From the sequence record OR896837.1: 64,000 bases of DNA; one strand, written 5' to 3'. The notes below the pieces were generated by a model. The model was not told the DNA's origin and ran no database searches. It saw nothing but the letters and a program-made list of their open reading frames with translations. This document shows positions 17,292-45,486 of this stretch, piece by piece. Each line of letters starts with the position of its first letter. Position 1 is the first letter of the stretch. The stretch is from Escherichia phage vB_Eco_mar004NP2. The position numbers were made by a program, and so were the translations under genes.

Positions 17292-17445
17292 AAATTTTGG
17301 CAGGGGTAAAGGTATTCGAAAGCTTGGGCTTCAGAAGTAGCTCTGGCTAACCTATATCCTTTTTTATATTCATCAGGGTATTCTCTATCTTGAATAAACA
17401 CAACATAAACTATGTATAATTCCACTTGTAATCCCCTAATTAAGT

Positions 17446-17523: not shown

Positions 17524-17529
17524 AGAATT

Positions 17530-17619: not shown

Positions 17620-17638
17620 AATTTATAAATATATTATA

Positions 17639-18157
17639 TTAGAAATTTAGCTTCATAGCAAGAAAATTTTTCAAGTTTTCGGTAGACATCTCATCCACAT
17701 CTACAGGAGAAACAAATCCATTTAATTGTCTAGCAAATTTTTCACCAGCAGGATCATTATCCCCAACAGCTACCAATTTAAAAGGTAGTAATTTCAATTG
17801 CTTTAACAACGCTTTTCCGGGGGAAGAACCCAACATTGCCAGGGCTGGATAACCAGCGTTATGTAACGCAACTGCCTTAAATACAGATTCAGCAATCAAT
17901 ACTACTTTTTCGTCTCCATTGAGAGTTTCTAGTCCCCGTACACACTGTGTAGTAGAATAAGTAAAATATCTAGCTTCAAAGGGGCATTTACCATGACCTT
18001 TTGGAGCAGAAGGATTATAAGTCTGATAGCCTCTCAACATCCCAGAGAAGTCATACAATGGGACTGTTAGCCATCCTTCTGGGCTTAGCCAGCAGTGATA
18101 TTTATCTGTATCAAACCCTCTAGATAAGAGATGTTCTGTTAGTTCATCAACAGTCAT
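17639..18157 (-). CDS. Toprim-domain protein
   Basis: Conserved Glu in VVLIAESV and acidic cluster VAVGDNDPAGEKFA resemble the Toprim fold. Confidence 0.45.
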   Translation of the reverse strand: MTVDELTEHLLSRGFDTDKYHCWLSPEGWLTVPLYDFSGMLRGYQTYNPSAPKGHGKCPFEARYFTYSTTQCVRGLETLNGDEKVVLIAESVFKAVALHNAGYPALAMLGSSPGKALLKQLKLLPFKLVAVGDNDPAGEKFARQLNGFVSPVDVDEMSTENLKNFLAMKLNF

Positions 18158-18254
18158 TATTTGATCCCCTAGTTAGTTGTATAAATACATTATACAGAAA
18201 AGCCCTGCGTTCTCCAGGAAACACAGGGCTTACTTCGAATATTACGCGTGGATA

Positions 18255-19203
18255 TTACTTATTACGCATATCCATAATCATCTGGCCATCGTAACCAGTG
18301 CCAACCACAGTCTGCGGTACACCACCTTGATACTTCTGAGCACGAATCATTTCAACTTCTAGTTGCTTCCAGCGAATCATCTCAGGAGTAATGGTACGTT
18401 GCAGCGCGGCGTTAGCTTCAGCTTCTTTCTTAGCTGCGTACAGTTTAGCATCTGCGTCGCGTTCGTTAGCAATAGCTTGGTTATTACGAGCTTCACGGTC
18501 TGCTTCTGCTTGTTTAACTTTCTGCTGAGCTTCTTGTTCAACGCGAGCCAGTTCAGCTTTTGCAGCATTAACTTGCTCTTCACGAACTTTGGTATTCTGT
18601 ACCTGTTCCATGATTACTGGTGGCAAAGTAATATCCTGAAGAAACATCTGCTTAACTGTGTAGCCATATGGGCGTGCATACTCTTCAACTTCCTGTTGAA
18701 TTGCAGTTTGCAATTGAGCCTGAATTTTAGCATCAAATAAATCTTGTGCTTTAGGTACAGACTTACCAAACTCACGAATAGTAGACAGTAATTTTTCAGT
18801 TACATATTTGTCTAATGCTTGATCCTGAGTACCTGCATTAATACGGTTAATCGGTGCCTTAGAACCATCAAACTGCAACATAACAGTCAGGTCAACAGTG
18901 GATTTAAACTTATCCTGGCTAGGAACCTGAAGTTTATCTAATTTTTACAGCAATATCTTTTGTACTAAAAGTATCGAAAGATGCAAATGGGTTTACAGGA
19001 TGGAAACCAGGTAATACTGGGTTAGGATCTACTTTACCAAGAAATGTTTGGGTTTTAACCGTACCATCAGAAACAATAGTATATGAATTAAAAGCTAGGA
19101 TTAAACCTGCTAAACCAACTACAGCACCAATCCCCCAACGTTTAATAGTACGAATTACTTTCTGCTCAGAAGTTAGTTCTTTCATATTTTTAGTATTAAA
19201 CAT
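18255..19203 (-). pseudogene. SPFH/band-7 membrane protein, reading frame interrupted (two ORFs, 18934..19203 and 18255..18881)
   Basis: Upstream ORF gives TM anchor plus first SPFH segment; downstream ORF gives the rest plus coiled coil; frames differ by +1 across an A5 run. Confidence 0.5.
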
Positions 19204-19237
19204 ATATTTCCTTTGTTTTAGTTACAGTTAATAAAAT

Positions 19238-19312
19238 TGGCCGAGGTGACAGGATTCGAACCTGCATAAAGGAATTTAGAAGACTCCTGCCTATCCCTTA
19301 GACTACACCCCG
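19238..19312 (-). tRNA. tRNA-Arg (anticodon UCU)
   Basis: Acceptor CGGGGTG/CACCTCG + G + CCA; anticodon arm GGAGT-CTTCTAA-ATTCC; T-arm GCAGG-TTCGAAT-CCTGT. Confidence 0.6.
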
Positions 19313-20843: not shown

Positions 20844-21311
20844 TTAAGTTTTAGTGACAACAGGTTTATAAAACGTATGTCCCTTAATCTTAGTTGTTTT
20901 CTTAAACTTCTTTGTCCAGTAAGGTTTATCTTTACCACTATGGAAGTATAGTGCTCCATGTGTAGGATCTTGTGGTAAATCAACGTAGTATATCACTCTA
21001 GCTAAATTCTTGGCGGTTTGCCAAGCCTCATCAGTTTTATCAACTTTTGGTCTCTTAGATACCCAAGAGAACTGGTTAGACTGATATACTACTTTACAGT
21101 AGGAATCTGGGAATTTACCGGAGTTTACACGGTTTTTAGTAACATGTGCAATCGCCGTCATTCCCTTTATGCCCTCACCACGACTTTCGAAATAGATATT
21201 TTTAGCAATGCAATCTATTTCTTTTGCATCGTGCGATGCCTGACTACTAAAGCTGAAGGTAAGGGCAGCTACTAAAAGCAAAGCTGCCTTCATTCTTTTT
21301 ACTCCTGCCAA
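20844..21311 (-). CDS. secreted cell-wall hydrolase (SleB-like)
   Basis: Signal peptide AALLLVAALTFSFSSQA; NIYFESRGE...VTKNR motif. Confidence 0.6.
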   Translation of the reverse strand: MAGVKRMKAALLLVAALTFSFSSQASHDAKEIDCIAKNIYFESRGEGIKGMTAIAHVTKNRVNSGKFPDSYCKVVYQSNQFSWVSKRPKVDKTDEAWQTAKNLARVIYYVDLPQDPTHGALYFHSGKDKPYWTKKFKKTTKIKGHTFYKPVVTKT

Positions 21312-21616
21312 TCATATTCAACACGATTGGGATTTTCTTTATACCCTAAGTCAAGCAAATCATTACGCATATTTTGCTTAGCTACTGGGTTCGAGGTTAC
21401 TAGTACCACTTTCTTTGGTCTCTGCCCAAATTCTAAGAGTAAACGAAGAATTTGATAACCTTCCATACCATCTACAGCCAAGTCATTATCCATATAAACG
21501 AAATGGCCTGTGGTATCAGTTTTATTCAGAAACTCTACAGCGGCTTCTGGGGTTCGAATGATAATGTCCATTCCATGAAGATTACGCACATCATCAATCA
21601 AAATATGAAAAGTCAT
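21299..21616 (-). CDS. hypothetical protein, possible receiver-like fold
   Basis: Weak resemblance only. Confidence 0.35.
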   Translation of the reverse strand: MTFHILIDDVRNLHGMDIIIRTPEAAVEFLNKTDTTGHFVYMDNDLAVDGMEGYQILRLLLEFGQRPKKVVLVTSNPVAKQNMRNDLLDLGYKENPNRVEYDWQE

Positions 21617-23003: not shown

Positions 23004-23705
23004 TCAAATTTTCATTTTTTCGATCATAGCTGCAACACAATAACTCTCAACTAGGGCATCGAATGCTGGGTCGTGCTTAACCGGATAGATCCCATAACGA
23101 ATGGTGTCCATCTTCTCCATTTTAGCTATTGCCCAGCTAATACCTTCGGTCTCTAGAGCCTTATAACTGTATCCAGCTTGCATCCAGAGATTACGAAGAG
23201 ATCGAACATTACCCAAATTCCAGAATTTCCATGGAACTACCTCTTCATTGGTTCCAGCATGGAACGTGTTTGCAGAGTAGATAGTCATATCAAACTCTGG
23301 GCCATTGCCATAATACAAAGCATTTTCGCCTAGAGCCAACTCCATAATATTTTGAGCCATAGAGAAGGCAGCATAGTTTGAGCCTAATTTATTAGTGCAA
23401 TGATGTTTACCATTTTGGAAGGCAATCAGTTTTGTATTACGTTCCTTCATAGCTTCCATAATGTGGATAGCAGATGGGCTATTTTTAGCTTGATCCATCC
23501 AGAATGCTAGAGTAGATGCTGTAACTTTGGCACCAGAATTAAGCTGATCCTGCACATCCAAAGTAACAAATACTAGATCAGGGTCTTTATCAACCCCATG
23601 CATAGCCACAAAAGCGAAAGAAGGCATTACGATATGAGTAGTACCACAATCTCCTGGAGTTCCTAGAGATTCAATATCTAGCATACCAAATGGTTTTACT
23701 TTCAT
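23004..23705 (-). CDS. DEDDh-type 3'-5' exonuclease
   Basis: N-terminal FGMLDIESLG (DxE) and C-terminal HDPAFD motifs. Confidence 0.55.
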   Translation of the reverse strand: MKVKPFGMLDIESLGTPGDCGTTHIVMPSFAFVAMHGVDKDPDLVFVTLDVQDQLNSGAKVTASTLAFWMDQAKNSPSAIHIMEAMKERNTKLIAFQNGKHHCTNKLGSNYAAFSMAQNIMELALGENALYYGNGPEFDMTIYSANTFHAGTNEEVVPWKFWNLGNVRSLRNLWMQAGYSYKALETEGISWAIAKMEKMDTIRYGIYPVKHDPAFDALVESYCVAAMIEKMKI

Positions 23706-31411: not shown

Positions 31412-31723
31412 TTACCAGTCTAGCTTTTTAGCTTGTTCAATTACTTTAGCTCTAGCTACTTCTTTTAATAGAATATCTATAGAGGTGCTCAGCTCGTTAT
31501 AATTGAATGGTTTATTTGGATTTGAGGTTACAATTTTCCACGCTAGGGTTGTCTTAGGACTTTCTTTCCCTTCCTTACGTGTAATCATATTAGCAGCACT
31601 CAGTGAAGTACGATGTATTTTAGTTTTACGGCTCAGATGAACGACGTTTCCCATATTACACCTTTCCCATATCTTTAAAAATATCATAGAATGCTTTAGA
31701 CTCAACAGAACGAACGTTATCAA
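31412..31723 (-). CDS. hypothetical small protein
   Basis: ORF; overlaps phoH 3' end so true start is probably internal. Confidence 0.3.
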   Translation of the reverse strand: MITFVLLSLKHSMIFLKIWERCNMGNVVHLSRKTKIHRTSLSAANMITRKEGKESPKTTLAWKIVTSNPNKPFNYNELSTSIDILLKEVARAKVIEQAKKLDW

Positions 31724-32408
31724 TCAATTCGATCATTGAGAATGGGGCATTTTCATATTTCTCATAGACTTCCATAAGGAGTGCTAGACCTGAGTCACCT
31801 TTAATGTCTTTCTGAGCTATATCTCCGCAGATAATTAAACGGCAGTCTTGCCCTACACGAGTTAGGAGACAAATCATTGCCTCAACGGAAATATTCTGAG
31901 CTTCATCGACAATTACATAGGAGTTGTTGAAAGTTCTGCCACGAGCATGTTCGACAGCCAAAAATTTAATTTTCTGACGTTCGACATATCCCTTATAGGC
32001 ATGATCGCCGATGGCCCATTTCATACCATCAGCTATTGGCTCTAACCAAGGCTCTAGCTTTTCCGCCAGATCACCAGGAAGCATACCAAGAGACTTACCT
32101 AGAGGTTCATTAGGACGTACGAGAATCACTTGCTCAATATCTGAGTGAATGTCTACGAGTTCCTGAGCTGCAAGAACGGACGGAATAAAGGTTTTACCAG
32201 TACCTGGCTCACCGATACCCACAGTCACTGTGTTGTTCTTGATCATATTGATATATGATTTTTGCTCGCGGTTTTTACCTACTAGGGATTTAGCAACTGG
32301 GTTAGCGTAATCATTAGAAAAATTAGTCTGAATTACGTTATTCTCATATTTGTTGCCACGCTTTCTTGAACCATTGCGGTTCTCTCTTTTTTGACGTGCT
32401 TTTCCCAT
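31656..32408 (-). CDS. phoH: PhoH-like ATPase
   Basis: Walker A GEPGTGKT and Walker B VIVDEAQN; start set at ATG 32408 after AGGAG RBS. Confidence 0.8.
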   Translation of the reverse strand: MGKARQKRENRNGSRKRGNKYENNVIQTNFSNDYANPVAKSLVGKNREQKSYINMIKNNTVTVGIGEPGTGKTFIPSVLAAQELVDIHSDIEQVILVRPNEPLGKSLGMLPGDLAEKLEPWLEPIADGMKWAIGDHAYKGYVERQKIKFLAVEHARGRTFNNSYVIVDEAQNISVEAMICLLTRVGQDCRLIICGDIAQKDIKGDSGLALLMEVYEKYENAPFSMIELIDNVRSVESKAFYDIFKDMGKV

Positions 32409-32481
32409 AAATAACACTCCTATAGTGTACTTCGCTAACAGAGGATCAACAAAAAGATCTTGTTTATCAACTTACAAATAT

Positions 32482-32760: not shown

Positions 32761-34635
32761 ATGAATCGCAATGAAGAACTAAAGTATAAAGAAATGCAGG
32801 CGTTAATTAGAAACTGCAAAGAGATTATCGAAGGGTCAGCAGATGAAGAGCTGCTGTTTAATAATGCCAATAAACCCTCAGAACGTTTCCCTACACAAAG
32901 GGATATGCTTGCAGGTGAATTGAGTAAGTATCTGATTCTAGAAGAAATGCCAATTCAGATTCGAAATGCTCATATGATTGGGGATATTCATTTCCATGAT
33001 GCTGATTATGCTGCATTAGGCATGACTAACTGTTGCCTGGTAGCTCTGGAAGATATGTTGAAGAATGGTATGAAGGTTGGTAATGCTGAAATTAGCACTC
33101 CAAACTCTATCACTACTGCGGCGGCTATCACTGCTCAGATTATCACTCAAGTTAGCTCCCATCAGTATGGTGGTACTTCTGTAGATCGCCTTGATGAAGT
33201 ATTAGCACCTTATGTTCGTAAATCCTATGACAAAAATCATGCGTTTGCAAAACGTTGGACTAAGGATGAAGCCAAAGCATCCGTAATGGCTACGGAGATG
33301 ACTGAAAAAGAAGTCTATGACGCTTGTCAGGGTTTAGAATATGAAATCAATACCATGTTCAACTCTAATGGTCAGAGTCCGTTTATTACCTTTGGTTTTG
33401 GTCTAGGAACTTCTTGGGAAGCACGTCTAGTACAGAAAGCAATACTGAAAGTACGCATGGATGGTTTAGGTATCAATAAGCGTACAGCTATCTTCCCGAA
33501 ACTGGTATTTGTACTCCGTGATGGCGTTAACATGAAACCAGGAGATGTTAATTATGACATCAAGAAGTTAGCTATGAAATGTACTGCTGAACGTATGTAT
33601 CCAGATTATATCAGCTATGATAAGGTTGTGGAAGTTACTGGAGACTATAAAGTTTCTATGGGCTGCCGTTCATTCCTAGCTGCTACAGAAGATGGTGAAA
33701 CTGCCGGTCGTAATAACTTAGGTGTTGTTTCTGTAAACTTGCCTAGAATTGCTATCGAAGCTGAAGGAAATATTGACCTATTCTTTGATTTGCTTGAGCT
33801 ACGTGTGGATACAGCGTTAAAAGCATTGGAGTGGAGAGTTGATCGCTTAAAATACATCCAAGCTAAAGCTGCGCCCATCCTCTATATGTCAGGAGCCTTT
33901 GGACTGCGCTTGGAGCCTGATGAATATGTATTCGATCATTTCTATAACCGTGCTTCTGTATCTCTAGGGTATATTGGTTGCCATGAAATGCTACAGTTCA
34001 TGTTTGGCAAAGATGTAGACACAATGTCCGAGACCTGCATCAAGTTTGTTCAGCGTGTATTGCAGTACATGCGGGATAGAGTCGATCAGAAGAAGGAAGA
34101 AACTAAGTTAGGTTATAGCCTGTATGCTACACCATCAGAATCCCTATGTGACCGTTTTTGTCGTCTAGACCGCGAATATTTCCCGGAGCATGAAGATATT
34201 CTGTCTAAAGGATACTACACTAACTCGCACCACCTTGATGTAGAACGTAAGGTTGCTCCCAATGTGAAATTTGATTATGAATCTAACTTTACGCCTATTG
34301 CTTCTGGTGGGTGCATTTCCTATGTAGAACTACCAGATATGAAACGATTCCCAGATGCACTGGAATGGGTTATTAATTATGCTGCTAGTAAAGTTCATTA
34401 CTTCGGTATTAATACTCCAGTGGATTCTTGCGGTAAATGTGGATTCTTAGGTGAAACAGTAGCATCCGAAGATGGGTTTAAGTGCCCTATCTGTGGTAAT
34501 CATGATCCCGAAACTCTTGAAGTAACTCGCCGAGTTTGTGGGTATCTTGGAAATCCAGGTGCTCGTCCATTTAACCCTGGTAAACAGCACGAGGTTATGG
34601 GCAGGGTGAAACATCAGGATATTCGAGCTAAATAA
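32761..34635 (+). CDS. nrdD: anaerobic ribonucleoside-triphosphate reductase
   Basis: C-terminal glycyl-radical motif RVCGYLGNP; Zn-ribbon cysteines CGKCG...CPICG. Confidence 0.9.
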   Translation: MNRNEELKYKEMQALIRNCKEIIEGSADEELLFNNANKPSERFPTQRDMLAGELSKYLILEEMPIQIRNAHMIGDIHFHDADYAALGMTNCCLVALEDMLKNGMKVGNAEISTPNSITTAAAITAQIITQVSSHQYGGTSVDRLDEVLAPYVRKSYDKNHAFAKRWTKDEAKASVMATEMTEKEVYDACQGLEYEINTMFNSNGQSPFITFGFGLGTSWEARLVQKAILKVRMDGLGINKRTAIFPKLVFVLRDGVNMKPGDVNYDIKKLAMKCTAERMYPDYISYDKVVEVTGDYKVSMGCRSFLAATEDGETAGRNNLGVVSVNLPRIAIEAEGNIDLFFDLLELRVDTALKALEWRVDRLKYIQAKAAPILYMSGAFGLRLEPDEYVFDHFYNRASVSLGYIGCHEMLQFMFGKDVDTMSETCIKFVQRVLQYMRDRVDQKKEETKLGYSLYATPSESLCDRFCRLDREYFPEHEDILSKGYYTNSHHLDVERKVAPNVKFDYESNFTPIASGGCISYVELPDMKRFPDALEWVINYAASKVHYFGINTPVDSCGKCGFLGETVASEDGFKCPICGNHDPETLEVTRRVCGYLGNPGARPFNPGKQHEVMGRVKHQDIRAK

Positions 34636-34642
34636 GCTAATC

Positions 34643-34679
34643 AGCCGGGTTGCTAGTCGACCTGGCTTTTATTTTATTT
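34643..34679 (+). terminator. rho-independent terminator after nrdD
   Basis: GC hairpin (AGCCGGG...CCTGGCT) followed by TTTTATTTTATTT. Confidence 0.5.
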
Positions 34680-34706
34680 GCTTTCAGCCAAAAATTTATG
34701 TATAAT
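34678..34706 (+). promoter_or_regulatory. sigma70-like promoter
   Basis: TTGCTT, 17 bp, TATAAT, followed by the conserved ATAAATTTGAGAGGAG leader. Confidence 0.55.
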
Positions 34707-34734
34707 TGATTTATAAATTTGAGAGGAGAAAGCT

Positions 34735-34947
34735 ATGAGAGTTCACAAGGTAGATAAAGAACGTATCTATTTTATTATGGATTCTGGGGCGTATGGTTCC
34801 ATTCTCCGTGGGGATATAGCTAAATTATGTTTAGTAAATACTTGGATGGACGAAGGGAAGATTGATCCTAGGGTGGGATTGTGCTTATCTGGGCCCGCCC
34901 TTTATATTGCTAGTGCAGAAATTGAAATGTTTGAGGAACAAGAATGA
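34735..34947 (+). CDS. hypothetical protein (70 aa)
   Basis: ORF with RBS GAGAGGAG. Confidence 0.45.
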   Translation: MRVHKVDKERIYFIMDSGAYGSILRGDIAKLCLVNTWMDEGKIDPRVGLCLSGPALYIASAEIEMFEEQE

Positions 34948-35147
34948 AGAACGTAAAACATCTTAAATATCGCTTAATTTACAACGGACGTATGGAAACA
35001 GAAGACCTGGCCCAGTTAGCTATTAATTCTAATGAGGTTACAGTGCGTGCGCTGGCAATTGAAAAGTTGCGTGCTTCTTATGAAAATCGTGTTATGGAAC
35101 TAGAGGAGAAACTTTATGGCATTCTCGAAGCCGATGCTACCAGATAA
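34944..35147 (+). CDS. hypothetical protein (67 aa)
   Basis: ATGA-coupled ORF. Confidence 0.4.
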   Translation: MKNVKHLKYRLIYNGRMETEDLAQLAINSNEVTVRALAIEKLRASYENRVMELEEKLYGILEADATR

Positions 35148-35337
35148 GGGTTTAAATGCCGCTTTGGAAAACGCATTAATGCAGCATTGGGAAACTGGCT
35201 ATAAGGATGGTGTTGAATCCTGCGCTAATATGCTAGAAGTTATTGCTAATACCTTAATGGAGAAAGGCAATAAAGAATTAGCTGAGCTATTAGACAGTAT
35301 TGGGCAAAACTTCAGAGAACAGGTGGAAAATGCGTAG
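35116..35337 (+). CDS. hypothetical protein (73 aa)
   Basis: ORF. Confidence 0.4.
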   Translation: MAFSKPMLPDKGLNAALENALMQHWETGYKDGVESCANMLEVIANTLMEKGNKELAELLDSIGQNFREQVENA

Positions 35338-36148
35338 ATTAATTATTATTAGCGGTGCGGGTTTGAGTGTTGAAAGTGGTGTACGAGCTTTTCGTACTGA
35401 TACTGCTAGTGGTAAAGCACTGTGGGATGATTATGATCTAGAAGAAGTATGTAATATTCATGCCTTTCGTAGTAATTTTTACCATAAAACCCATATGTTT
35501 TACAACAAACGTCGTGAAGAGCTAAAAACTGTTGAACCCAATCTTGCACATTTGCGTATTGGTGAATGGTATAAACAATATCCAGGTCAGGTAGTAAACT
35601 TGACTACCAACGTTGATGACCTTATTGAGCGTGCTGGCGTTCCACATAGTGACATTCTGCACATTCACGGATATTTAAAAGAGGTTATTGTAGCTGATAG
35701 CTACAATAGTAGCAATAAACGGATTATTGATGTAGGGTACAATTCTATTGATCCAGATGATTATAAATGGGTTAAACCTAATGTAATCTTCTTTGGGGAG
35801 CATGCTCCAGCGTATGCAGAAATGTACAATATTTTTGATGGTATTACCAGTCAAGATATGATCATTGTGGTTGGTTGCTCTAACCAAGTAATTAACTTCT
35901 ACTGGGAATTATTTCCTGTTCTTAATTTGACTGCTGCGAAACTTATGGTTGTTAACTACTATGATAGTGCCCTCGCAGCGGAACCGGGCTATCAAGGTAT
36001 GACTCGTAGTGAGATGTACCAGCTGGAAGAACGTGGTATCCCTTACTGGAGTAAAGGTGCGGTAGATGCTTTCAACGACCCTGATTTTATTGCTCGTGTA
36101 GAAGCCCATTTAGAGGGTAGACCTTATGTGTCGAGAAGCAAGAAATAA
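35330..36148 (+). CDS. Sir2-family (sirtuin-like) NAD-binding protein
   Basis: GAGLSVESGVRAFR, NVDDLIERAG, HIHG, FFGE motifs; no Zn-binding Cys tetrad visible; start set at ATG 35330. Confidence 0.65.
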   Translation: MRRLIIISGAGLSVESGVRAFRTDTASGKALWDDYDLEEVCNIHAFRSNFYHKTHMFYNKRREELKTVEPNLAHLRIGEWYKQYPGQVVNLTTNVDDLIERAGVPHSDILHIHGYLKEVIVADSYNSSNKRIIDVGYNSIDPDDYKWVKPNVIFFGEHAPAYAEMYNIFDGITSQDMIIVVGCSNQVINFYWELFPVLNLTAAKLMVVNYYDSALAAEPGYQGMTRSEMYQLEERGIPYWSKGAVDAFNDPDFIARVEAHLEGRPYVSRSKK

Positions 36149-36240
36149 TGAATGGGATATTTTTATAGCTTAGTCTGGCACTTGGTGTTATATATATGTT
36201 GATACGGTTGAGTATGATACGTTCTTAGAAAGGAACAAAA

Positions 36241-36747
36241 ATGGAAATAAGTAATACTCCAATTATTTTTCTAGACATTGATGGGGTGCTCAATTCGAGC
36301 ATCTCCCATCATCATGCACCTGATAATGAAAAGATTTTCTTTGGAAGTGACTGGGTTTTCAAACCGCTTCTCAAGGCTTTTCAGGATTTTATTCGTCCTT
36401 CTCCGATAATGATTGTTGGAGTATCCTCATGGTTCTCTGTTAGGAATGAGATGGAGAACGTTCAGATTATGACCGGATTAGGTCTTATCGATCGTTTTCT
36501 TGGTACAACTGATTTTACTGGGGGTGGGCTATCTAGAGGTAATTCTGTTCTCCGTTTCGTTGAAAAGCATAAGCTCAAACATTGGTGTGTGCTTGATGAT
36601 GCTGGTGCTACGATGTATCAGTATCCAACGGTTATAGTCAACGGTAGGACTGGGATAAATCTTCAAGATTTAAAAGCTGTTAGCTATATGCTAGAATTTA
36701 GCCCAGATATTGAAATGTGTAAATCCTTACAACAATTTAAGGTGTAA
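36241..36747 (+). CDS. HAD-superfamily phosphatase (nucleotidase-like)
   Basis: N-terminal FLDIDGVLN (DxDG) motif. Confidence 0.55.
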   Translation: MEISNTPIIFLDIDGVLNSSISHHHAPDNEKIFFGSDWVFKPLLKAFQDFIRPSPIMIVGVSSWFSVRNEMENVQIMTGLGLIDRFLGTTDFTGGGLSRGNSVLRFVEKHKLKHWCVLDDAGATMYQYPTVIVNGRTGINLQDLKAVSYMLEFSPDIEMCKSLQQFKV

Positions 36748-36749
36748 AT

Positions 36750-37178
36750 ATGTTCAATAATGTATTCTCTAAAGAAGCTAACCCAATTTTGGTTAACTTT
36801 TGGCGTACTCTCCCAGCTAGCCTGTATAATGAGGCTATTAACTCTTTGAAAATATGGTGTGAGAATAACGAAATCTCCTTTGCTTTTAAGGATGATATTG
36901 ATGAGGCCCCCTGTATTGGTTTAATTGTGCAGGTAGAGGATGGTCTTGAAGAGATTGTGGGCTGGAAAGAGTTAGACGAAATGGGCTTAGTTTTTGCGTT
37001 AAACTATAAGCTGTTTATGCCTGCTAAGCATCGCCTAGTTGTTAACTATAAAACTAGTGAATCTCCTGGTTTTCAGGTTAATGAACGTTATGGTTGGTCT
37101 TACTCACCGGAAGAAGTGAATGAGGGGATTCAGAAACTTCGCCGTTTCGGGTATATGATCCCAGGTTTAACTGCTTAA
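36750..37178 (+). CDS. hypothetical protein, paralog A of tandem pair
   Basis: Shares SF(A/T)F...(D/P)C.G...W.EL..MGL...LN..LF...PGL with the next ORF. Confidence 0.5.
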   Translation: MFNNVFSKEANPILVNFWRTLPASLYNEAINSLKIWCENNEISFAFKDDIDEAPCIGLIVQVEDGLEEIVGWKELDEMGLVFALNYKLFMPAKHRLVVNYKTSESPGFQVNERYGWSYSPEEVNEGIQKLRRFGYMIPGLTA

Positions 37179-37187
37179 GGAGGCAGA

Positions 37188-37580
37188 ATGGAACAAGTAT
37201 ATTGGCGTCAGATTGATCCTAGTTTGGTGAAGCGTGCTGAGAAGCTGCTACAACGTTGGTTGGGGGTAAAGCAAGCCTCCTTCACTTTTCCAGAGCAGCA
37301 AATAGATGATCCCTGCACTGGCGTTTTCCTGTCTGGATATGCCGGGGAATGGGAGATGGACTGGAATGAATTGTCCTCTATGGGTTTAATTGTTTCCCTA
37401 AATTTCTCTTTGTTCCATCCACGTGGTTTTGCCATATGTCGTGTGCCTGATGACGGTTGTTCGCCCCATCTTTTACAGGTGAAAGATGATATTTGGGAGT
37501 ACACTCCAGATATTCTCAAAGAAGCTAAAGAACAATTAAACCGTGTTGGGATTTATGTTCCAGGCCTAAATGATGAATGA
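37188..37580 (+). CDS. hypothetical protein, paralog B of tandem pair
   Basis: Similarity to preceding ORF. Confidence 0.5.
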   Translation: MEQVYWRQIDPSLVKRAEKLLQRWLGVKQASFTFPEQQIDDPCTGVFLSGYAGEWEMDWNELSSMGLIVSLNFSLFHPRGFAICRVPDDGCSPHLLQVKDDIWEYTPDILKEAKEQLNRVGIYVPGLNDE

Positions 37581-37671
37581 TTTTTACTAGCTGAACTCTG
37601 ATTACCGAGTCATTTTGGCTCGGTTTTCTCTGTACTCAAAGACACTGATAGCACCTTTGGGAAAAATTTAC

Positions 37672-37700
37672 TTGCACGGTGCTCAAAATCTTGATATAAT
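37672..37700 (+). promoter_or_regulatory. sigma70-like promoter at start of a 0.6-kb non-coding region
   Basis: TTGCAC, 17 bp, TATAAT. Confidence 0.55.
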
Positions 37701-38199
37701 ATTTATATTGAATTGAGAGACATTAGTAAAAATTGATTTTGCTAATTTTTCTTGTTTACAATCCGCGATACGGAACAGTTAGGCTGCCCCATTAAGGGTT
37801 GTTTTAACTGTTACGTGTTAGTTTTTAAACAAATAGTTAATAGAATACTTAGCGATCTGCGTCCCGTAGGAACCCTGGTAAGGCCTCGAAGCAACCTAGA
37901 TAGAGGTGGTTGTGAAGTGAGACGGGAGGAGTGAAAAACTCCGAGACGTGATTCTGTAAGTTATATTGCATCTAGTATGAGCTAGTATATGAAGCATTAG
38001 GTGAGCAAATCTGGCTTAGCGGCCATCCTCAAGGATTTGTGCGGTATAGCAAAGCAGCAGCGCAGCGTGAAAGTGGAAGTTGCCACCCCACTTCAGTATT
38101 TGCGATTAATTTGTTGAGAAATTGACAGTAACAGTTGTTCTATTCTTTCTGAATAGTCCTAAAGAAAACTTATTTCATTTCCAACACAGGAGTATTGTT

Positions 38200-40989
38200 G
38201 TGTTTTCAATCCTACAAGGTCATGCAGGATTTCATCGCGATTTAGCCACAGGCAATTGGCGAGAAGTTAAAGCAGAAGATTATCTTTTTGCTAAAAGATT
38301 TTCCTCAAAGCATCCTGAAGGTAAACCAGCTTCAATGCCCTTCAAGTTTGATGTAATTGACGAAGTTGATCCTCAAACCCTAGTAGAAATGCTTCCTCTT
38401 ATGAGACGTTTAACGTCTGACCCTCATATCGTTGCGGTACGAGGTCGATGTCTTGCACCTAAAAATAATGTGCGGCGTAAGAATGGCAACTTTAATGTAT
38501 CTAACCCAAGTCATATAATTGCAATGGATGTGGATGGTATTGTAGATACAGGTGGTTGTAACAAGTTTGATCTTGTTGGCATGGCTCGACATATTATTAG
38601 AATGTTAAATAGTATTAGTGAGGATATGTTTCCTCTTGATGCAGGGTTTATCGCTCATGCATCGTCTTCGGCTGGGCTAAAACCAGGTATCCGAATGCAC
38701 TTAATACTAGAATCTAATGTTAAAGTAACTCAGGGTCAAATCAAATTCTTATTTACATCTATCAACGAAAGTAGTAGACAAAAGTATGGCTTTGATATTG
38801 CCGACTTAGCTTATTACTCTTCCGTACAGCTCCATTATTTTGCAGATCCGTTATTTACCGATGGTATAGTAGATCCGTTTAAAGAGGAGGGTGCTTCACG
38901 TCTGGTATTTGTTAAGGGTTCTAAAGTAAATTTACCCAATAATCTGGTTGACTATGAAACAACTAGAGGTGAGTTTAAAGAAGAGTTCTACTCTTTACTA
39001 GACCAAATTAAGGGTAAAAAAGCTGCCTCTGATAAAGTAGAAGAAACCATCAGCGAACTAGAAGAAGCTGAGGATGGAGTGTATCTACGTATTATTCCTA
39101 AACTCTATCACAGGGCTTTAGAGGATGGTGTTGATTTTGCATGGCTAGAAAAAGAAATCCGTCCAGCCTTATCAGAATATATTGCAACTAAAGATAATAG
39201 TCGTAATATTCAAGACTACTTTAATAATGGTCGTAAACAGGCTCTAAAAGCATTTGTTAATAATTCTAAACGTTATATACCGGATGTTTTAAAAGGTATT
39301 CCACTCAAAAAGCTAGAAACTAACTCTTTAGAGACTGATAACTTCTTGAAATTAAATACTGTGCCACCAGAAGGTTATATGACTTTTGTAAAAGCGAGTC
39401 TAGGTACAGGTAAAACTACAGCGGTTGTGCGTTGGTTAGATTCAGGAGTTATTAAAGGTAATTTCTTAGCAATTACCAATACTCGAGCACTGGTATCTTC
39501 CAATGCTAAGAAATTTAGTGCAGGACAATATGATAAGTCTGTAGATATGCTTAATTTTAAGCGTGGTGCTATTGACCGTATGTCCACAACTATTCACTCT
39601 TTGCATAAGTTCAAGAGTTTTATTGGTCAAATTGATGCAATCTTTATCGATGAATGTGATGCAGTAATGAACGACCTATTATTCGCCCCGGTTGTTAAAC
39701 AACGTCGTGAATGTATTCAGGTTCTTCGGGATATTCTTGCAACTGCAAAAATCATTATATTATCAGATGGTGATATTAGTGCAGAAACAATTGAAGCATA
39801 TGGTTCTTTGATCGAGTTTGATAAACCGGTTGCATTTTATAATCATCACCGTAAAATGCTGTCAAAAGCTCATGCTTATGAGTTTCCTGATGAATCCAGT
39901 ATTTGGGTTGCACTTCAGACTTCTCTAGAGATGGGTGAGAAATCTATTCTGGTATCTGATTGTGGCCCTGATGAGCTGAATGAGAAGGGTATGGCATTAC
40001 GTCGTAATACGGGTGCGTTAGTTAAGGAAATCCACTCAAATTCTACGTCTGATGTGGATATTAGACGTATTCTGGATTACACAACTAATGAGCTGATTGA
40101 TCAACAAATTGATTGCTTATTATGTAGTCCATCCGTAACGAGTGGAGTTGACTTCAACTATTTTGATAACGTATTCGTTATTACTAGAACCAGTAACCAA
40201 GCGCCAAACATGCGTTTTCAAGCAATCAGGCGCGACCGTGGTGCTCAGAATATCTATTATTTTATTGATAAATCTACGAGTGGATTCTCTGCAGGTTCTG
40301 AACAATATAATATTGATGAGGGCTGGCTGGAGTTAGCACAGCAATTATATGCACGTCGTAGAGAGCTGGAATCTAGAAATTATACTAGTACTTTACGTTA
40401 TTACTTGCTTGATCAGGGTGCAACTATTGATATTTTCAGCGAAAGCTGGGGAACTATTGAAGGTGCAGGGAAAGAATATATGGAAGAGCGAATCAAAGCT
40501 ATTCTACATTCAACTCCTGATTATTGTGCTCCACGTCATGCGGATGCGTATGAAGCTAAACTACTTCTTGTTCGCTATTATCATCTTGAGTCTATTAAAG
40601 ATGTAACAGTTGAGCATGTTGAACAATATATCAAGGATAAACCTAATGATCGAGCGGCATTCTTCCATAAAATGCACGAGATGTTTTGGGAAGATATTAA
40701 GAAGTGTTCAAACGTCACTATCAAACCATTCATAGAAGCTCTGAAAGGTAAGAAGAAGGACTTCTTCCTTAAAACAGGTCAGAGTGCTAACCCAAAATAT
40801 GCTAGAATGTATCTTGGTATGATGGGTATTGGTAAGGATATGAACACTGAAAATATTGTAGACTGGTACAGAACCTATTGTAAAATCGAGTGTATGCCAA
40901 TTCCTTATAAGTTTATGACTGATGAGGAGAAACATATGCATGATGAAGCAATGGCAGAGCTAGGTGCTAGAAATGACAGTGAAGAATAA
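38200..40989 (+). CDS. replication initiation / origin-binding-type protein with P-loop NTPase domain
   Basis: Walker A SLGTGKTT and Walker B IFIDECD in a 929-aa protein at the head of the replication module; start set at GTG 38200 after ACAGGAG RBS. Confidence 0.5.
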   Translation: MFSILQGHAGFHRDLATGNWREVKAEDYLFAKRFSSKHPEGKPASMPFKFDVIDEVDPQTLVEMLPLMRRLTSDPHIVAVRGRCLAPKNNVRRKNGNFNVSNPSHIIAMDVDGIVDTGGCNKFDLVGMARHIIRMLNSISEDMFPLDAGFIAHASSSAGLKPGIRMHLILESNVKVTQGQIKFLFTSINESSRQKYGFDIADLAYYSSVQLHYFADPLFTDGIVDPFKEEGASRLVFVKGSKVNLPNNLVDYETTRGEFKEEFYSLLDQIKGKKAASDKVEETISELEEAEDGVYLRIIPKLYHRALEDGVDFAWLEKEIRPALSEYIATKDNSRNIQDYFNNGRKQALKAFVNNSKRYIPDVLKGIPLKKLETNSLETDNFLKLNTVPPEGYMTFVKASLGTGKTTAVVRWLDSGVIKGNFLAITNTRALVSSNAKKFSAGQYDKSVDMLNFKRGAIDRMSTTIHSLHKFKSFIGQIDAIFIDECDAVMNDLLFAPVVKQRRECIQVLRDILATAKIIILSDGDISAETIEAYGSLIEFDKPVAFYNHHRKMLSKAHAYEFPDESSIWVALQTSLEMGEKSILVSDCGPDELNEKGMALRRNTGALVKEIHSNSTSDVDIRRILDYTTNELIDQQIDCLLCSPSVTSGVDFNYFDNVFVITRTSNQAPNMRFQAIRRDRGAQNIYYFIDKSTSGFSAGSEQYNIDEGWLELAQQLYARRRELESRNYTSTLRYYLLDQGATIDIFSESWGTIEGAGKEYMEERIKAILHSTPDYCAPRHADAYEAKLLLVRYYHLESIKDVTVEHVEQYIKDKPNDRAAFFHKMHEMFWEDIKKCSNVTIKPFIEALKGKKKDFFLKTGQSANPKYARMYLGMMGIGKDMNTENIVDWYRTYCKIECMPIPYKFMTDEEKHMHDEAMAELGARNDSEE

Positions 40990-43532: not shown

Positions 43533-44504
43533 ATGACTAATGTAAAAGACTTTATTAAACGTTGCCAAGAAGCATATTACCAGGGAATGTCTTTAATCTC
43601 TGACGAAGAATATGATCGTCTGATTAAAAGATTTCCGTTAGAAGAAGAGATCGGGCCTAAGGGCGATATTCCACATCTGTATCGTATGTATTCTTTACAG
43701 AAAGTTTATTATAATCGTGGAGATAAACCTCCGTTTAACCCATTAGGTCAGGTAGAAACTGATAAGTTAGATGGTTGTGCGATTTCTCTGTTATATATTA
43801 ATGGCGAATTTGTTCAAGCATTAACTCGTGGTAATGGCATTCTAGGGAATGATGTCACAAGCAACGTAAGATTGCTGAACATCCCTAAAAAGATTTCCCA
43901 AAAAGTACCTACTCAAATCACTGGTGAAGTTCTAATTACAAAAGAAGTAGAAAATAAACGTAACTTTGCCTCTGGTGCTATTAACCTCAAGGATAGAGAT
44001 GATTTCGTACAACGTATCGGGGAAGGTGGTTTAATCTTCGTTGCATATGGTATCCAGTGTTCTGCTGAATCTGTAGGTATTACAGAAGCGTATTTAAAAG
44101 ATATGCTTTGGCTGGAGAATGAGAACTTCTTAACAGTTGTTAATGTGCGTTCCTTCTTTAAATGGATTCCGACGGACGGTAAAGTTGTTCGTATCAATGA
44201 CAATAACAAATTCTTCCGAGAAGGCTGGACTAATAAATTCCCTCGTGGAGCATTCGCTATTAAAGAGGATGAAGAAGGCGAAATTACAACTCTTACTAAA
44301 GTTGAATGGCAGGTAGGGGCTTCTGGTAAAGTAACTCCAGTTGGTTATTTTGAACCGGTAATTATTGATGATGCTACAATTGTTAAAGCGACTCTTAATA
44401 ACGTTGATTATATTAACTCTCTCGATCTAGAGATCGGTTGCCAGATTCGAGTGATTCGTGCTGGTGGTGTAATCCCGTGTATAGTAGAGCGAGTATACGA
44501 TTAA
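43533..44504 (+). CDS. NAD-dependent DNA ligase, adenylation-domain subunit (split ligase, part A)
   Basis: KLDG adenylation motif and OB-like region; C-terminal Zn/HhH/BRCT modules are in the next gene. Confidence 0.7.
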   Translation: MTNVKDFIKRCQEAYYQGMSLISDEEYDRLIKRFPLEEEIGPKGDIPHLYRMYSLQKVYYNRGDKPPFNPLGQVETDKLDGCAISLLYINGEFVQALTRGNGILGNDVTSNVRLLNIPKKISQKVPTQITGEVLITKEVENKRNFASGAINLKDRDDFVQRIGEGGLIFVAYGIQCSAESVGITEAYLKDMLWLENENFLTVVNVRSFFKWIPTDGKVVRINDNNKFFREGWTNKFPRGAFAIKEDEEGEITTLTKVEWQVGASGKVTPVGYFEPVIIDDATIVKATLNNVDYINSLDLEIGCQIRVIRAGGVIPCIVERVYD

Positions 44505-44554
44505 TACATAACCCTTTGCTACCCATCTACCATATCGGAATTATAAAGTGGTTA

Positions 44555-44583
44555 TTGACATTTTCGCCGCTTAGGTATATACT
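44555..44583 (+). promoter_or_regulatory. sigma70-like promoter in ligase intergenic region
   Basis: TTGACA, 17 bp, TATACT. Confidence 0.5.
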
Positions 44584-44646
44584 ATTATCATTCAGTTGAG
44601 GGATAGAAAGTTATGGCGAGGGTAAGCAAAGTTAGTTAAAATTGTA

Positions 44647-44676
44647 GTTGCTAAATGCTTAAATACTTGCTATAAT
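44647..44676 (+). promoter_or_regulatory. sigma70-like promoter
   Basis: TTGCTA, 18 bp, TATAAT. Confidence 0.45.
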
Positions 44677-44703
44677 ATTTATATAAATTGATAAGGAAGA
44701 AAT

Positions 44704-45486
44704 TTGATGAAAATCGAAATTCCAACACAATGTCCCTCTTGTGGTTCTAAGCTAGATCTTGTCAACGGACAATTATTCTGTCGGAATAAGTCCAACTGTC
44801 CAGCGCAATCAAGTAAGTTAATTGAGAACTTCTGTTCAAAAATGAAGTTAAAGGGCTTTGGCCCAAAAACTATTGAGAAGCTGGAGCTGACGAAGATTTC
44901 AGAACTATTTTACCTAACCGAAGAAGATTTGGTTAGAGCCGTGGGTAGCAAGGTTGCCGCTAAGTTAATTAGCGAATTAAATACTAAAGTTCGCGGAGAC
45001 ATTGACTTTGGTTCAGTTCTCGGTTCTTTAGGAATCCCTCTAATTGGAGAGGTTGCAGCAAAGAAATTATCCCAAAATTACACTAGCTTCCATGATGTGA
45101 AGGCTGACGGCAAGGCTGGAGAAAATTACAAAGCCTGGCTAAATTCCCCACAAGGCAAGGATGTTATCGAACTACCGTGGAAATTTTCAACTGGTATTAA
45201 GGGCACTAAAGCTGACGTCATCATTACAGATGAATTAGTTGCCCAGCCAAATGGAATCGCGGTATGTATTACCGGATCTTTGCAAGATTTTGCAAATCGA
45301 ACGGATGCAACAAACTATTTAGAAGGTCTAGGGTATACGGTTAAGAAATCCGTTACTAAAGACGTCAAATACCTAATCTGTGAGGATGAATCAAAACGTT
45401 CTTCCTCATCTTATAAGAAAGCCGAAACGAATGGGATAGAAATCCTGTCGATTAAAGAACTATTGGAGAAAAATAATAATGTCTAA
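44704..45486 (+). CDS. NAD-dependent DNA ligase, Zn-finger/HhH/BRCT subunit (split ligase, part B)
   Basis: CPSCGSKL...CRNKSNCPAQ zinc finger, helix-hairpin-helix-like GFGPKT, C-terminal BRCT-like region. Confidence 0.7.
   Translation: MMKIEIPTQCPSCGSKLDLVNGQLFCRNKSNCPAQSSKLIENFCSKMKLKGFGPKTIEKLELTKISELFYLTEEDLVRAVGSKVAAKLISELNTKVRGDIDFGSVLGSLGIPLIGEVAAKKLSQNYTSFHDVKADGKAGENYKAWLNSPQGKDVIELPWKFSTGIKGTKADVIITDELVAQPNGIAVCITGSLQDFANRTDATNYLEGLGYTVKKSVTKDVKYLICEDESKRSSSSYKKAETNGIEILSIKELLEKNNNV

What the first reader, a model, noticed from the sequence alone, without database searches (positions are those of the whole stretch)
35330..37580. Sir2-like protein lacking the zinc-binding cysteines, clustered with a HAD phosphatase and two tandem paralogs
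The Sir2-like ORF keeps the NAD-binding motifs (GAGLSxESG, HG) but shows no CxxC...CxxC zinc module. Such Sir2 variants often act as NADases or ADP-ribosyltransferases rather than deacetylases. The neighbouring DxDG phosphatase and duplicated PGL-ending proteins could form a small NAD/nucleotide-modifying or host-takeover module.
Basis: partly seen in the sequence, partly recalled or inferred. Interest (0 to 1): 0.55.

Follow-up and report, generated by a model that had tools for sequence, protein, structure and literature searches.

The report
Zinc-less phage sirtuin gene cluster in T5
This is the known early-gene cluster T5.102-T5.107 of a T5-like phage: a zinc-less sirtuin, a phosphatase of an RNA-repair type and two small duplicated proteins of unknown function. 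Both its odd features are already in the literature, and its real activity (RNA-end repair or protein deacylation) has never been tested.

Summary
Window 35330-37580 encodes a Sir2 protein with intact NAD and catalytic motifs, only two cysteines and no CxxC. After it come a HAD phosphatase (Pfam HAD_SAK_2) and two tandem DUF7415 paralogs (31% identical).

The window is a Tequintavirus, and these genes are T5.102 and T5.105-T5.107.

The sirtuin is not a defence-type NADase. By sequence and predicted fold it is closest to class III deacylases (E. coli CobB, SIRT5), and it keeps their YxxR pocket motif. It belongs to a phage-only clade present in about 1000 phage genomes.

Both unusual features are published. 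Skliros 2016 noted the missing zinc ligands. Iyer/Aravind 2022 described the sirtuin + "Swiss-army-knife" HAD neighbourhood and predicted a KptA/Tpt1-like removal of RNA 2'-phosphate using NAD+.

I re-derived the RNA-repair contexts independently:
- rV5/Mydo phages: Rnl1, kinase, cREC and metallophosphoesterase beside the sirtuin.
- Jumbo phages: Nudix-cREC and PIN-PhoH beside the sirtuin.
- This window: a cREC gene about 14 kb away.

The four-gene cluster is conserved only in Demerecviridae. DUF7415 has no known fold or catalytic residues. All four proteins are acidic, which does not favour direct RNA binding.

Function is unproven. My estimates are RNA-end repair 0.4 and protein deacylase 0.3. 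Novelty is low.

The parts
35330..36148 (+). Zinc-less, class III-derived sirtuin (ortholog of T5.102), 272 aa
   Evidence: - Pfam PF02146, 3e-25; phrog_2162, 3.7e-121.
- Best PDB sequence match is E. coli CobB 1s5p, 1.3e-17.
- AF2 model pLDDT 89.7. Foldseek top hits are CobB, Sir2Af1 and SIRT5, E about 4e-17, TM 0.71/0.84.
- Invariant in the 53-sequence alignment A1: G9-A-G11, S13, S16-G17, F21-R22, C41, Y58, R61-R62, P70-N71, H74, T93-N-V-D96, H113-G114, K149-P150, F154-F155, E157, G182, S184, N209 (the same columns are conserved among the 120 closest homologs).
- No CxxC.
36241..36747 (+). Stand-alone HAD phosphatase of the 'Swiss-army-knife' RNA-repair type (ortholog of T5.105), 168 aa
   Evidence: - Pfam HAD_SAK_2 PF18143, 6.7e-20, covering 138/139 profile positions; phrog_1818.
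- HAD motifs I-IV are invariant in four orthologs: D12xD14, S62/S63, R99, D119D120.
- No solved relative by sequence.
36750..37178 (+). DUF7415 paralog a (ortholog of T5.106), 142 aa, two DUF7415 repeats
   Evidence: - Pfam PF24187, 2.6e-35, 2 stretches; phrog_2502.
- 31% identical to paralog b, E 2e-19.
37188..37580 (+). DUF7415 paralog b (ortholog of T5.107), 130 aa, two DUF7415 repeats
   Evidence: - Pfam PF24187, 2.3e-31.
- No invariant polar residues: only W, G, L, N, P are invariant.
- pI 4.7.
34735..35337 (+). Three small overlapping ORFs (70, 67 and 73 aa) at the head of the same transcription unit; function unknown
   Evidence: - phrog_20147, phrog_5236 and phrog_5827, all of unknown function.
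- No Pfam match above cut-off.
- The last one overlaps the Sir2 start by 8 nt.
34643..34667 (+). Terminator-like hairpin after nrdD; upstream boundary of the unit
   Evidence: T5 is annotated with a terminator and a promoter at the equivalent place.
37604..37624 (+). Terminator-like hairpin 24 nt after the stop of DUF7415 b; downstream boundary of the unit
   Evidence: T5 is annotated with a rho-independent terminator at the equivalent place.
21299..21616 (-). cREC (cyclic-phosphate-processing receiver) protein, 105 aa; candidate distant partner, not adjacent
   Evidence: - Pfam cREC_REC PF20274, 3.8e-15, 56.8 bits against a cut-off of 27.
- The same family lies directly beside the sirtuin in rV5 and in PBECO4 and pEa_SNUABM_12.

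Best explanation
The region is the Demerecviridae (T5-like) form of a phage-specific, sirtuin-centred, NAD+-consuming module.

Shown:
- One early transcription unit encodes a catalytically intact sirtuin. It descends from class III (CobB/SIRT5-like) enzymes, has lost the Cys4 zinc site, and carries Thr in place of the Gln of TQNID.
- The unit also encodes a catalytically intact HAD phosphatase of the RNA-end-healing ('Swiss-army-knife') type and two acidic, non-catalytic DUF7415 proteins.

Inferred, following Iyer et al. 2022:
- After a host anticodon nuclease or another metal-independent RNase cuts tRNA or rRNA, a cyclic phosphodiesterase opens the 2',3'-cyclic phosphate to a 2'-phosphate. 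Here that enzyme would be the cREC protein at 21299-21616.
- The phosphate oxygen attacks C1'' of NAD+ in the sirtuin, and nicotinamide leaves.
- His113 activates the ribose 2''-OH. [quoted passage not shown] This two-step chemistry parallels both Tpt1/KptA and the sirtuin acyl-transfer mechanism.
- The invariant Tyr58/Arg61 pair binds the succinyl carboxylate in SIRT5/CobB. Here it would bind the anionic phosphate.
- The HAD enzyme removes a terminal 2'/3'-phosphate, or dephosphorylates the ADP-ribose-phosphate by-product.
- Sealing is left to a host ligase, because no phage RNA ligase was found in this window.
- DUF7415 proteins act as adaptors or regulators.
For: - The phage clade is distinct and strongly conserved at all NAD and catalytic positions.
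- The same clade sits beside RNA-end-processing genes in three further settings. rV5/Mydo-like phages have metallophosphoesterase, AAA_33 kinase, T4 Rnl1 ligase and cREC. PBECO4 and pEa_SNUABM_12 have a Nudt16-like Nudix, cREC (fused to the Nudix in the latter) and PIN-PhoH. A 608-kb jumbo contig has Rnl1.
- In T5-likes the neighbour is HAD_SAK_2. It overlaps the Sir2 stop in some genomes and lies on the other side of the Sir2 in Erwinia phage KEY.
- A cREC gene is present in this window, next to the tRNA block.
- No macro domain partner was found.
- The prediction itself is published (PMC9503650).
- Tpt1 chemistry is taken from the abstract of PMC11417386.
Against: - There is no biochemical or genetic test anywhere.
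- The sirtuin, HAD and DUF7415 proteins are all acidic. The clade's median pI is 5.2, which is unlike typical RNA-binding enzymes.
- The closest relatives by sequence and by fold are genuine protein deacylases, and the acyl-lysine pocket motifs (YxxR, FGE) are retained.
- No RNA ligase or polynucleotide kinase was detected in the 64-kb window.
- The HAD/DUF7415 association is confined to one viral family, so it may be plain synteny.
- Phi92-like and KVP40-like phages carry the sirtuin with no recognisable RNA-repair neighbour.
- The sirtuin also lies next to nucleotide-metabolism genes: nrdD here and in L063; NadV/NadM in L067.
Confidence: 0.4

Rival explanations
1. It is an ordinary protein lysine deacylase (deacetylase/desuccinylase). 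It has merely replaced the zinc site by other stabilising contacts. It acts on host or phage proteins, for example reactivating acetyl-CoA synthetase or reversing acyl-phosphate-driven acylation. The HAD and DUF7415 genes are unrelated neighbours in an early nucleotide-metabolism region.
For: - The best sequence and fold matches are CobB, Sir2Af1 and SIRT5.
- YxxR (Y58/R61, equivalent to CobB Y92/R95), FGE and the catalytic His are invariant.
- The three-stranded sheet of the small domain is kept in the model.
- This function was proposed for the KVP40-like homolog by Skliros et al. 2016. That paper already showed salt bridges in place of the zinc ligands (PMC5107563).
- An acidic protein is normal for a deacylase.
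Against: - Scores are far below every NCBIfam CobB equivalog cut-off: 100.7 bits at best, while the cut-offs are 221-395.
- Clade-wide changes sit at functional positions: Gln to Thr in TQNID, the substrate-staple V-Y-P changed to V-I-N, Cys at the CobB A76 pocket position, and a 4-residue insert in the cofactor loop.
- RNA-end-processing genes recur beside the gene in separate lineages.
- The hosts already have CobB.
Confidence: 0.3
2. It is an ADP-ribosyltransferase, or a processor of NAD-derived small molecules, used in counter-defence or regulation. It might ADP-ribosylate a protein or a 5'-phosphorylated nucleic-acid end, or consume an immune signal. The HAD, Nudix and cREC enzymes would clear ADP-ribose-phosphate products.
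For: - Nudix, cREC and the NAD-salvage genes NadV/NadM lie beside the sirtuin in jumbo phages.
- The clade-specific active-site changes.
- Sirtuin ADP-ribosyltransferases are known (SirTM; reviewed in PMC9503650).
Against: - No macro domain partner was found.
- There is no similarity to SirTM or to defence sirtuins beyond the shared fold.
- No target is suggested by the gene context.
Confidence: 0.15
3. It is an NAD+ glycohydrolase that depletes host NAD+ as part of host takeover.
For: Many zinc-less SIR2 domains (ThsA, DSR, SIR2-HerA) are NADases; this rests on general knowledge and on PMC9503650.
Against: - The protein is not of that clade. It matches only PF02146, has no PADLOC hit, and its fold neighbours are deacylases.
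- The phage needs NAD+ for its own split NAD-dependent DNA ligase at 43533-45486.
- Related phages pair the gene with NAD salvage rather than NAD destruction.
Confidence: 0.05

Closest known systems
Phage 'RNA-repair' sirtuin clade of Iyer, Burroughs, Anantharaman & Aravind 2022 (Viruses 14:1977), neighbourhood type 3 (Escherichia phage SP15: sirtuin + Swiss-army-knife HAD)
   Same: Same clade and same neighbourhood. SP15 is a Tequintavirus whose DUF7415 protein is 92% identical to the one here (P0124). I reproduced the rV5/Mydo and jumbo-phage neighbourhoods they describe.
   Different: The text of that paper that I read does not mention three things: the loss of the zinc site, the DUF7415 pair, and the unlinked cREC gene of T5-likes. 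I could not see its Figure 5f. Its functional claim is a prediction only.
E. coli CobB and human/zebrafish SIRT5 (class III sirtuins)
   Same: Same fold (Foldseek E about 4e-17, TM 0.71/0.84), about 24% identity. Shared motifs: GAGxS, FR, YxxR, N-[IV]-D, HG, FGE.
   Different: - No Cys4 zinc site.
- Thr for Gln in TQNID.
- Cys at the CobB A76 position.
- V-I-N for V-Y-P after the GxS motif.
- A 4-residue insert in the cofactor loop.
- Below all CobB equivalog cut-offs.
Sir2/CobB of KVP40-like Vibrio phages (phiSt2, phiGrn1; Skliros et al. 2016, PMC5107563)
   Same: Member of the same phage clade (ValKK3 homolog 35% identical). The lack of zinc ligands was already noted there, and T5 was named as having a homolog.
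   Different: The gene context differs: no HAD or DUF7415 directly adjacent. That paper argues for a protein deacetylase role.
Tpt1/KptA RNA 2'-phosphotransferase
   Same: Proposed functional analogue. It uses NAD+, an oxyanion attacks C1'', and the product is a 1'',2''-cyclic species (abstract of PMC11417386). It has comparable RNA-repair gene partners.
   Different: Unrelated fold (ART-like, not Rossmann). No sequence or structural relationship. The activity of the sirtuin is untested.
Defence sirtuins (ThsA, DSR1/2, SIR2-HerA, SPARSA) and SirTM
   Same: Sirtuin-type Rossmann core. The defence forms also lack the zinc module.
   Different: No PADLOC or SIR2_2 match. The fold neighbours are deacylases instead. 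There are no sensor, HerA, pAgo or macro partners. The gene is encoded by a lytic phage, not a defence island.

Membership tests
Sirtuin superfamily (Pfam SIR2, PF02146) | Profile match above the gathering cut-off, and a Rossmann fold with a small domain | tested here: met
   89.7 bits against a cut-off of 24. AF2 model pLDDT 89.7. Foldseek probability 1.00 to many sirtuin structures.
Sirtuin superfamily (Pfam SIR2, PF02146) | NAD-binding GAGxS, the N-x-D of QNID, and the catalytic His | tested here: met
   G9-A-G-L-S13, N94/D96 and H113 are invariant in the 53-sequence alignment A1 and conserved among the 120 closest homologs.
Class III sirtuins (CobB/SIRT5 deacylases) | YxxR motif of the acyl-carboxylate pocket | tested here: met
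   Y58 and R61 align with CobB Y92 and R95 and are 100% conserved in the 120 closest homologs. The jumbo-phage members L062, L066 and L067 have Leu at that position and Arg one residue later.
Class III sirtuins (CobB/SIRT5 deacylases) | Cys4 zinc-binding module | tested here: not met
   Only C41 and C183 are present. 0 of 120 homologs has a CxxC. Distant phage relatives L062 and L064 do keep the cysteines.
Class III sirtuins (CobB/SIRT5 deacylases) | Score above the NCBIfam CobB/deacylase model cut-offs | tested here: not met
   The best score is 100.7 bits against a cut-off of 243. All seven models are far below their cut-offs.
Class III sirtuins (CobB/SIRT5 deacylases) | NAD+-dependent lysine deacylase activity | not testable with these tools
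   Needs enzyme assays.
Defence-type SIR2 NADases (ThsA, DSR, SIR2-HerA, SPARSA) | Match to defence SIR2 profiles (PADLOC, Pfam SIR2_2) and a linked sensor or partner gene | tested here: not met
   No PADLOC family at E<=0.01. PF02146 is the only Pfam hit at E<=0.1. The neighbours are a HAD and DUF7415 proteins.
SirTM (macro-domain-linked ADP-ribosylating sirtuins) | Adjacent macro domain gene | tested here: not met
   No macro domain among the seven ORFs of the unit, nor among the neighbours I scanned in related loci.
Phage RNA-repair-associated sirtuin clade (Iyer et al. 2022) | Homology to the sirtuins of rV5, Mydo-like and Eneladusvirus (Serratia BF species) phages | tested here: met
   55-62% identity to rV5 and Mydo-like loci, and 41% over three quarters of the protein to pEa_SNUABM_12.
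Phage RNA-repair-associated sirtuin clade (Iyer et al. 2022) | Conserved neighbourhood with RNA-end-processing genes (type 3: Swiss-army-knife HAD) | tested here: met
   HAD_SAK_2 lies directly downstream. It is conserved in 23/23 Tequintavirus loci, in Epseptimavirus and L036, and upstream of the Sir2 in Erwinia phage KEY.
Phage RNA-repair-associated sirtuin clade (Iyer et al. 2022) | Predicted RNA 2'-phosphate removal with NAD+ | not testable with these tools
   A prediction only. No experimental paper was found.
Tpt1/KptA RNA 2'-phosphotransferase | KptA/ART-like fold and profile | tested here: not met
   The only Pfam match is SIR2, and the fold is a sirtuin. Any relation would be functional analogy only.
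HAD superfamily, HAD_SAK_2 family | Profile match above cut-off and HAD motifs I-IV | tested here: met
   72.3 bits against a cut-off of 27.5. D12xD14, S62/S63, R99 and D119D120 are invariant.
DUF7415 (PF24187) | Profile match above cut-off | tested here: met
   120.8 and 108.2 bits against a cut-off of 27, with two repeats in each protein.

The most novel reading that the evidence does not exclude
The zinc-less phage sirtuin is a true RNA-directed enzyme: a sirtuin-fold, NAD+-dependent RNA 2'-phosphotransferase convergent with Tpt1/KptA. It would work with the HAD phosphatase and the unlinked cREC protein to undo host RNase damage. The DUF7415 pair would be a new class of adaptor that is also fused elsewhere to nucleotide kinases and MazZ-like pyrophosphohydrolases. 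The idea for the sirtuin is already published as a prediction. The new parts would be the proof and the role of DUF7415.
Probability: 0.3. Interest if true: 0.7.

Novelty: already known. Interest (0 to 1): 0.3.

Why it matters
If the published prediction is right, this would be the first sirtuin shown to act on RNA. It would be a second, unrelated fold performing Tpt1 chemistry, and it would add an NAD+-dependent branch to phage counter-defence against anticodon nucleases. The gene is in about 1000 sequenced phages, including therapeutic T5-like and rV5-like phages, so its role matters for host range on strains that carry RNase- or NAD-based defences. As it stands, the finding adds no new object. 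The genes have been annotated in T5 since 2005, and both unusual features have been described. Database annotations of the neighbours are also wrong and worth correcting: the HAD is labelled 'Sir2', and DUF7415 is labelled 'exonuclease', 'tail tube protein' or 'RNA-binding protein'.

Tried and rejected
- Defence-NADase reading. Rejected: no PADLOC or SIR2_2 match, the fold neighbours are deacylases, and the phage has an NAD-dependent ligase.
- Four-gene functional module conserved beyond T5-likes. Rejected: HAD and DUF7415 are absent within +/-10 kb of the sirtuin in all loci outside Demerecviridae.
- Search for a phage RNA ligase, polynucleotide kinase or metallophosphoesterase of rV5 type in the window by tblastn. 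Nothing significant; only the weak cREC hit, later confirmed by Pfam.
- Solved relatives of the HAD by sequence or by profile: none.
- HAD homologs in T4-like phages (Morganella MP1, Aeromonas Aes508). No Sir2 or DUF7415 nearby, so they give no extra linkage evidence.
- Rfam scan of 34600-38300: no match.
- Literature searches for DUF7415, HAD_SAK_2 and experimental work on phage sirtuins: none found.
- Electrostatics of the substrate cleft. Not possible, because the model coordinates are not exposed to scripts; pI was used as a crude proxy.
Full report
**What the window is.** The 3-kb stretch is 99.6% identical to Escherichia phage vB_Eco_mar004NP2. It matches 529 phage records, mostly Salmonella, Escherichia and Klebsiella T5-like phages. 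The surrounding genes confirm a Tequintavirus early region:
- nrdA/B, PhoH and nrdD upstream;
- the origin-binding/primase-like protein, D2, D3 and a split NAD-dependent DNA ligase downstream.

In phage T5 itself the four genes are T5.102 (Sir2), T5.105, T5.106 and T5.107. They are flanked by an annotated promoter and terminators.

**Checking the observation.**
- The sirtuin starts at the ATG at 35330. It has a Shine-Dalgarno-like AGGTGG just upstream and overlaps the upstream ORF by 8 nt. Homologs start at the same Met.
- It matches Pfam SIR2 at 3e-25.
- It has only two cysteines, neither in a CxxC.
- None of the 120 closest database homologs has a CxxC. The NAD and catalytic positions are invariant or nearly so: GAGxSxxSG, F21-R22, N94/D96, H113-G114, K149-P150, FFGE, G182-x-S184, N209.
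- The next gene matches Pfam HAD_SAK_2 at 6.7e-20. All four HAD motifs are invariant in four orthologs.
- The last two genes both match DUF7415, each with two repeats. They are 31% identical, E 2e-19.
- dN/dS against Tequintavirus orthologs is 0.05-0.14 for all four genes.

**What kind of sirtuin it is.**
- By sequence, the nearest solved protein is E. coli CobB (1.3e-17), followed by Sir2Af1/Af2 and SIRT5.
- An AlphaFold model built on 53 homologs is confident, with pLDDT 89.7. Its best Foldseek matches are again CobB (E about 4e-17, TM 0.71/0.84), Sir2Af1 and SIRT5.
- The three β-strands of the usual zinc module are still predicted.
- The class III signature YxxR is kept in every one of the 120 closest homologs. 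Y58/R61 align with CobB Y92/R95.
- The protein has no PADLOC defence-model match and no second Pfam family. It is therefore not a ThsA/DSR/SIR2-HerA-type NADase.
- It is also not a CobB equivalog. Its best NCBIfam score is 100.7 bits, while the seven models' cut-offs are 221-395 bits.

The clade carries fixed differences from CobB:
- Thr for the Gln of TQNID;
- Cys41 at the position of CobB A76, a pocket residue altered in engineered CobB variants according to the PDB entry names;
- V-I-N in place of the substrate-staple V-Y-P;
- a conserved 4-residue insert in the cofactor loop.

Two distant phage relatives, L062 and L064 (35-37% identical), keep both the zinc cysteines and the Gln. The zinc-less members have Thr, Ala or Ser at that position. 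Loss of zinc and loss of the Gln therefore go together.

**Distribution.** tblastn finds the protein in 1007 phage records. These include Demerecviridae, rV5-like Vequintavirinae, Mydo-like and phi92-like myoviruses, KVP40-like Vibrio phages and jumbo phages. All 120 best protein-database hits look phage-derived.

**Is the cluster co-conserved?** I collected 64 loci and searched them for the neighbours.
- The full Sir2-HAD-DUF7415-DUF7415 order is in all 23 Tequintavirus loci and in Epseptimavirus.
- L036 has the HAD and one DUF7415.
- Sugarlandvirus has two DUF7415 genes and no HAD.
- L056 has one DUF7415.
- Erwinia phage KEY has the HAD upstream of the Sir2 and no DUF7415.
- Outside Demerecviridae, neither gene occurs within 10 kb of the sirtuin.

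So the four-gene cluster is a family-level feature. Only the HAD link shows any independence from simple synteny: its position changes in KEY, and in several genomes it overlaps the Sir2 stop.

**What the sirtuin sits beside elsewhere.**
- In rV5 and Mydo-like phages the genes just upstream are a calcineurin-like phosphoesterase, an AAA_33 P-loop kinase, a T4 Rnl1-type RNA ligase and a cREC (cyclic-phosphate-processing receiver) protein.
- In the jumbo phages PBECO4 and pEa_SNUABM_12 the sirtuin is followed by a Nudt16-like Nudix, a cREC (fused to the Nudix in the latter) and a PIN-PhoH protein. NadM- and NadV-like NAD-salvage genes lie upstream in the latter.
- A 608-kb contig has Rnl1 close by.
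- This window itself encodes a cREC protein at 21299-21616, beside the tRNA genes.
- Phi92-like and KVP40-like phages show no such neighbours.

**Prior art.**
- This pattern has been published. [quoted passage not shown] They propose that the sirtuin acts like KptA/Tpt1 to remove RNA 2'-phosphates.
- The missing zinc ligands were noted earlier for the KVP40-like homolog by Skliros et al. (2016, PMC5107563). They showed salt bridges in place of the zinc site, named T5 as having a homolog, and argued for a protein deacetylase role.
- I found no experimental test of either idea.

**DUF7415.**
- The family has no invariant polar residue and is acidic, pI 4.7. It is most likely a binding or adaptor protein, not an enzyme or a typical RNA binder.
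- A full HMMER scan of 1.84 billion representatives finds about 20 full-length two-repeat relatives. The C-terminal module of about 55 residues occurs in 192 representatives.
- Some of those are fused to a thymidylate-kinase-like domain or to a dATP/dGTP pyrophosphohydrolase.
- This points to a link with nucleotide-handling enzymes but does not define a function.

**Mechanism and weighing.**
- The chemistry proposed by Iyer et al. is plausible. Tpt1 and sirtuins both begin with an oxygen nucleophile attacking NAD+ C1''. Both end with the ribose 2''-OH forming a 1'',2''-cyclic species. The Tpt1 steps are from the abstract of PMC11417386; the sirtuin mechanism is established knowledge.
- The retained Tyr/Arg pair is suited to an anionic group.
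- Against it: the sirtuin clade is acidic (median pI 5.2); the peptide-pocket motifs are retained; no RNA ligase or polynucleotide kinase was found in the window; and several lineages lack any RNA-repair neighbour.
- An NAD+-depleting role is unlikely, because the phage depends on its own NAD-dependent DNA ligase.
- My estimates: RNA-end repair 0.4, protein deacylase 0.3, other ADP-ribosyl transfer or NAD-metabolite processing 0.15, NADase 0.05.

**Verdict.** The NADase analogy and the host-takeover idea are not supported. The object and both of its unusual features are already in the literature. The small additions from this work are:
- the coupling of zinc loss with the Gln-to-Thr change;
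- the unlinked cREC gene in T5-likes;
- the fold-orphan, non-catalytic nature of DUF7415 and its domain fusions;
- the limited phyletic range of the four-gene cluster.

Noticed in passing
window 21299-21616 (-): A 105-aa cREC_REC protein (Pfam 3.8e-15). It belongs to the family that sits directly beside the sirtuin in rV5 and in jumbo phages. Here it lies about 14 kb away, next to the tRNA block.
   Followed up: partly
L044-L047 (Epseptimavirus) against window 32761-37580: The sirtuin is only 52% identical to the window's. The flanking HAD is 88% identical, and nrdD is 97% identical in L045-L047 (60% in L044). The Sir2 allele therefore appears to have been exchanged or to have diverged much faster than its neighbours.
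   Followed up: no
window 36149-36240; L006-L028; L069 (T5) 3744-4102: The spacer between Sir2 and HAD varies among Tequintaviruses. It is an overlap in some, 92 bp here, and about 180-500 bp in others. T5 has two extra small ORFs (T5.103, T5.104) in it.
   Followed up: partly
window 37581-38121: About 540 bp without a convincing ORF, between the cluster's terminator and the origin-binding/primase-like gene. It contains promoter-like sites and has no Rfam match. It may hold regulatory or origin elements.
   Followed up: partly
window 15796-19312 (-): Only 5 tRNA genes are present, whereas the related phage SIA3lw has more than 20 in the same region. Next to them are a Band_7 fragment (below cut-off), a small Toprim protein and an Rv2179c-like 3'-5' exoribonuclease (23004-23705).
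   Followed up: no
window 43533-44504 and 44704-45486 (+): The NAD-dependent DNA ligase is split into two genes: an adenylation + OB part and an HhH + BRCT part.
   Followed up: partly
L062:10001-10711 and L064:9986-10708: These distant phage sirtuins (35-37% identical) keep the CxxC...CxxC zinc site and the canonical TQN(I/C)D. They look like intermediates between CobB and the zinc-less clade. L064 lies beside an Rnl1 ligase and an arginase-family protein. L062 lies beside a nucleoside 2-deoxyribosyltransferase-like gene.
   Followed up: partly
window 31656-32417 (-); L066:6955-8394; L067:7046-8500: A PhoH-type ATPase lies within about 3 kb of the sirtuin in T5-likes. In two jumbo phages it is a PIN-PhoH fusion. 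This makes it a recurring neighbour across lineages.
   Followed up: no
P0170, P0286, P0290: The C-terminal module of DUF7415 (about 55 residues) occurs fused to a thymidylate-kinase-like domain and to dATP/dGTP pyrophosphohydrolase (MazZ-like) domains. It also occurs alone in many small phage proteins.
   Followed up: partly
public records matched: The neighbours are misannotated in public records. The HAD is labelled 'Sir2 (NAD-dependent deacetylase)', probably through phrog_18062. DUF7415 proteins are labelled 'exonuclease', 'tail tube protein' or 'RNA-binding protein'.
   Followed up: partly
L063:9959-13125; L061: The sirtuin is close to nrdD in L063 and L061 (41-47% identical Sir2), as it is in T5-likes. 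This may mean a nucleotide-metabolism context rather than an RNA-repair one.
   Followed up: no
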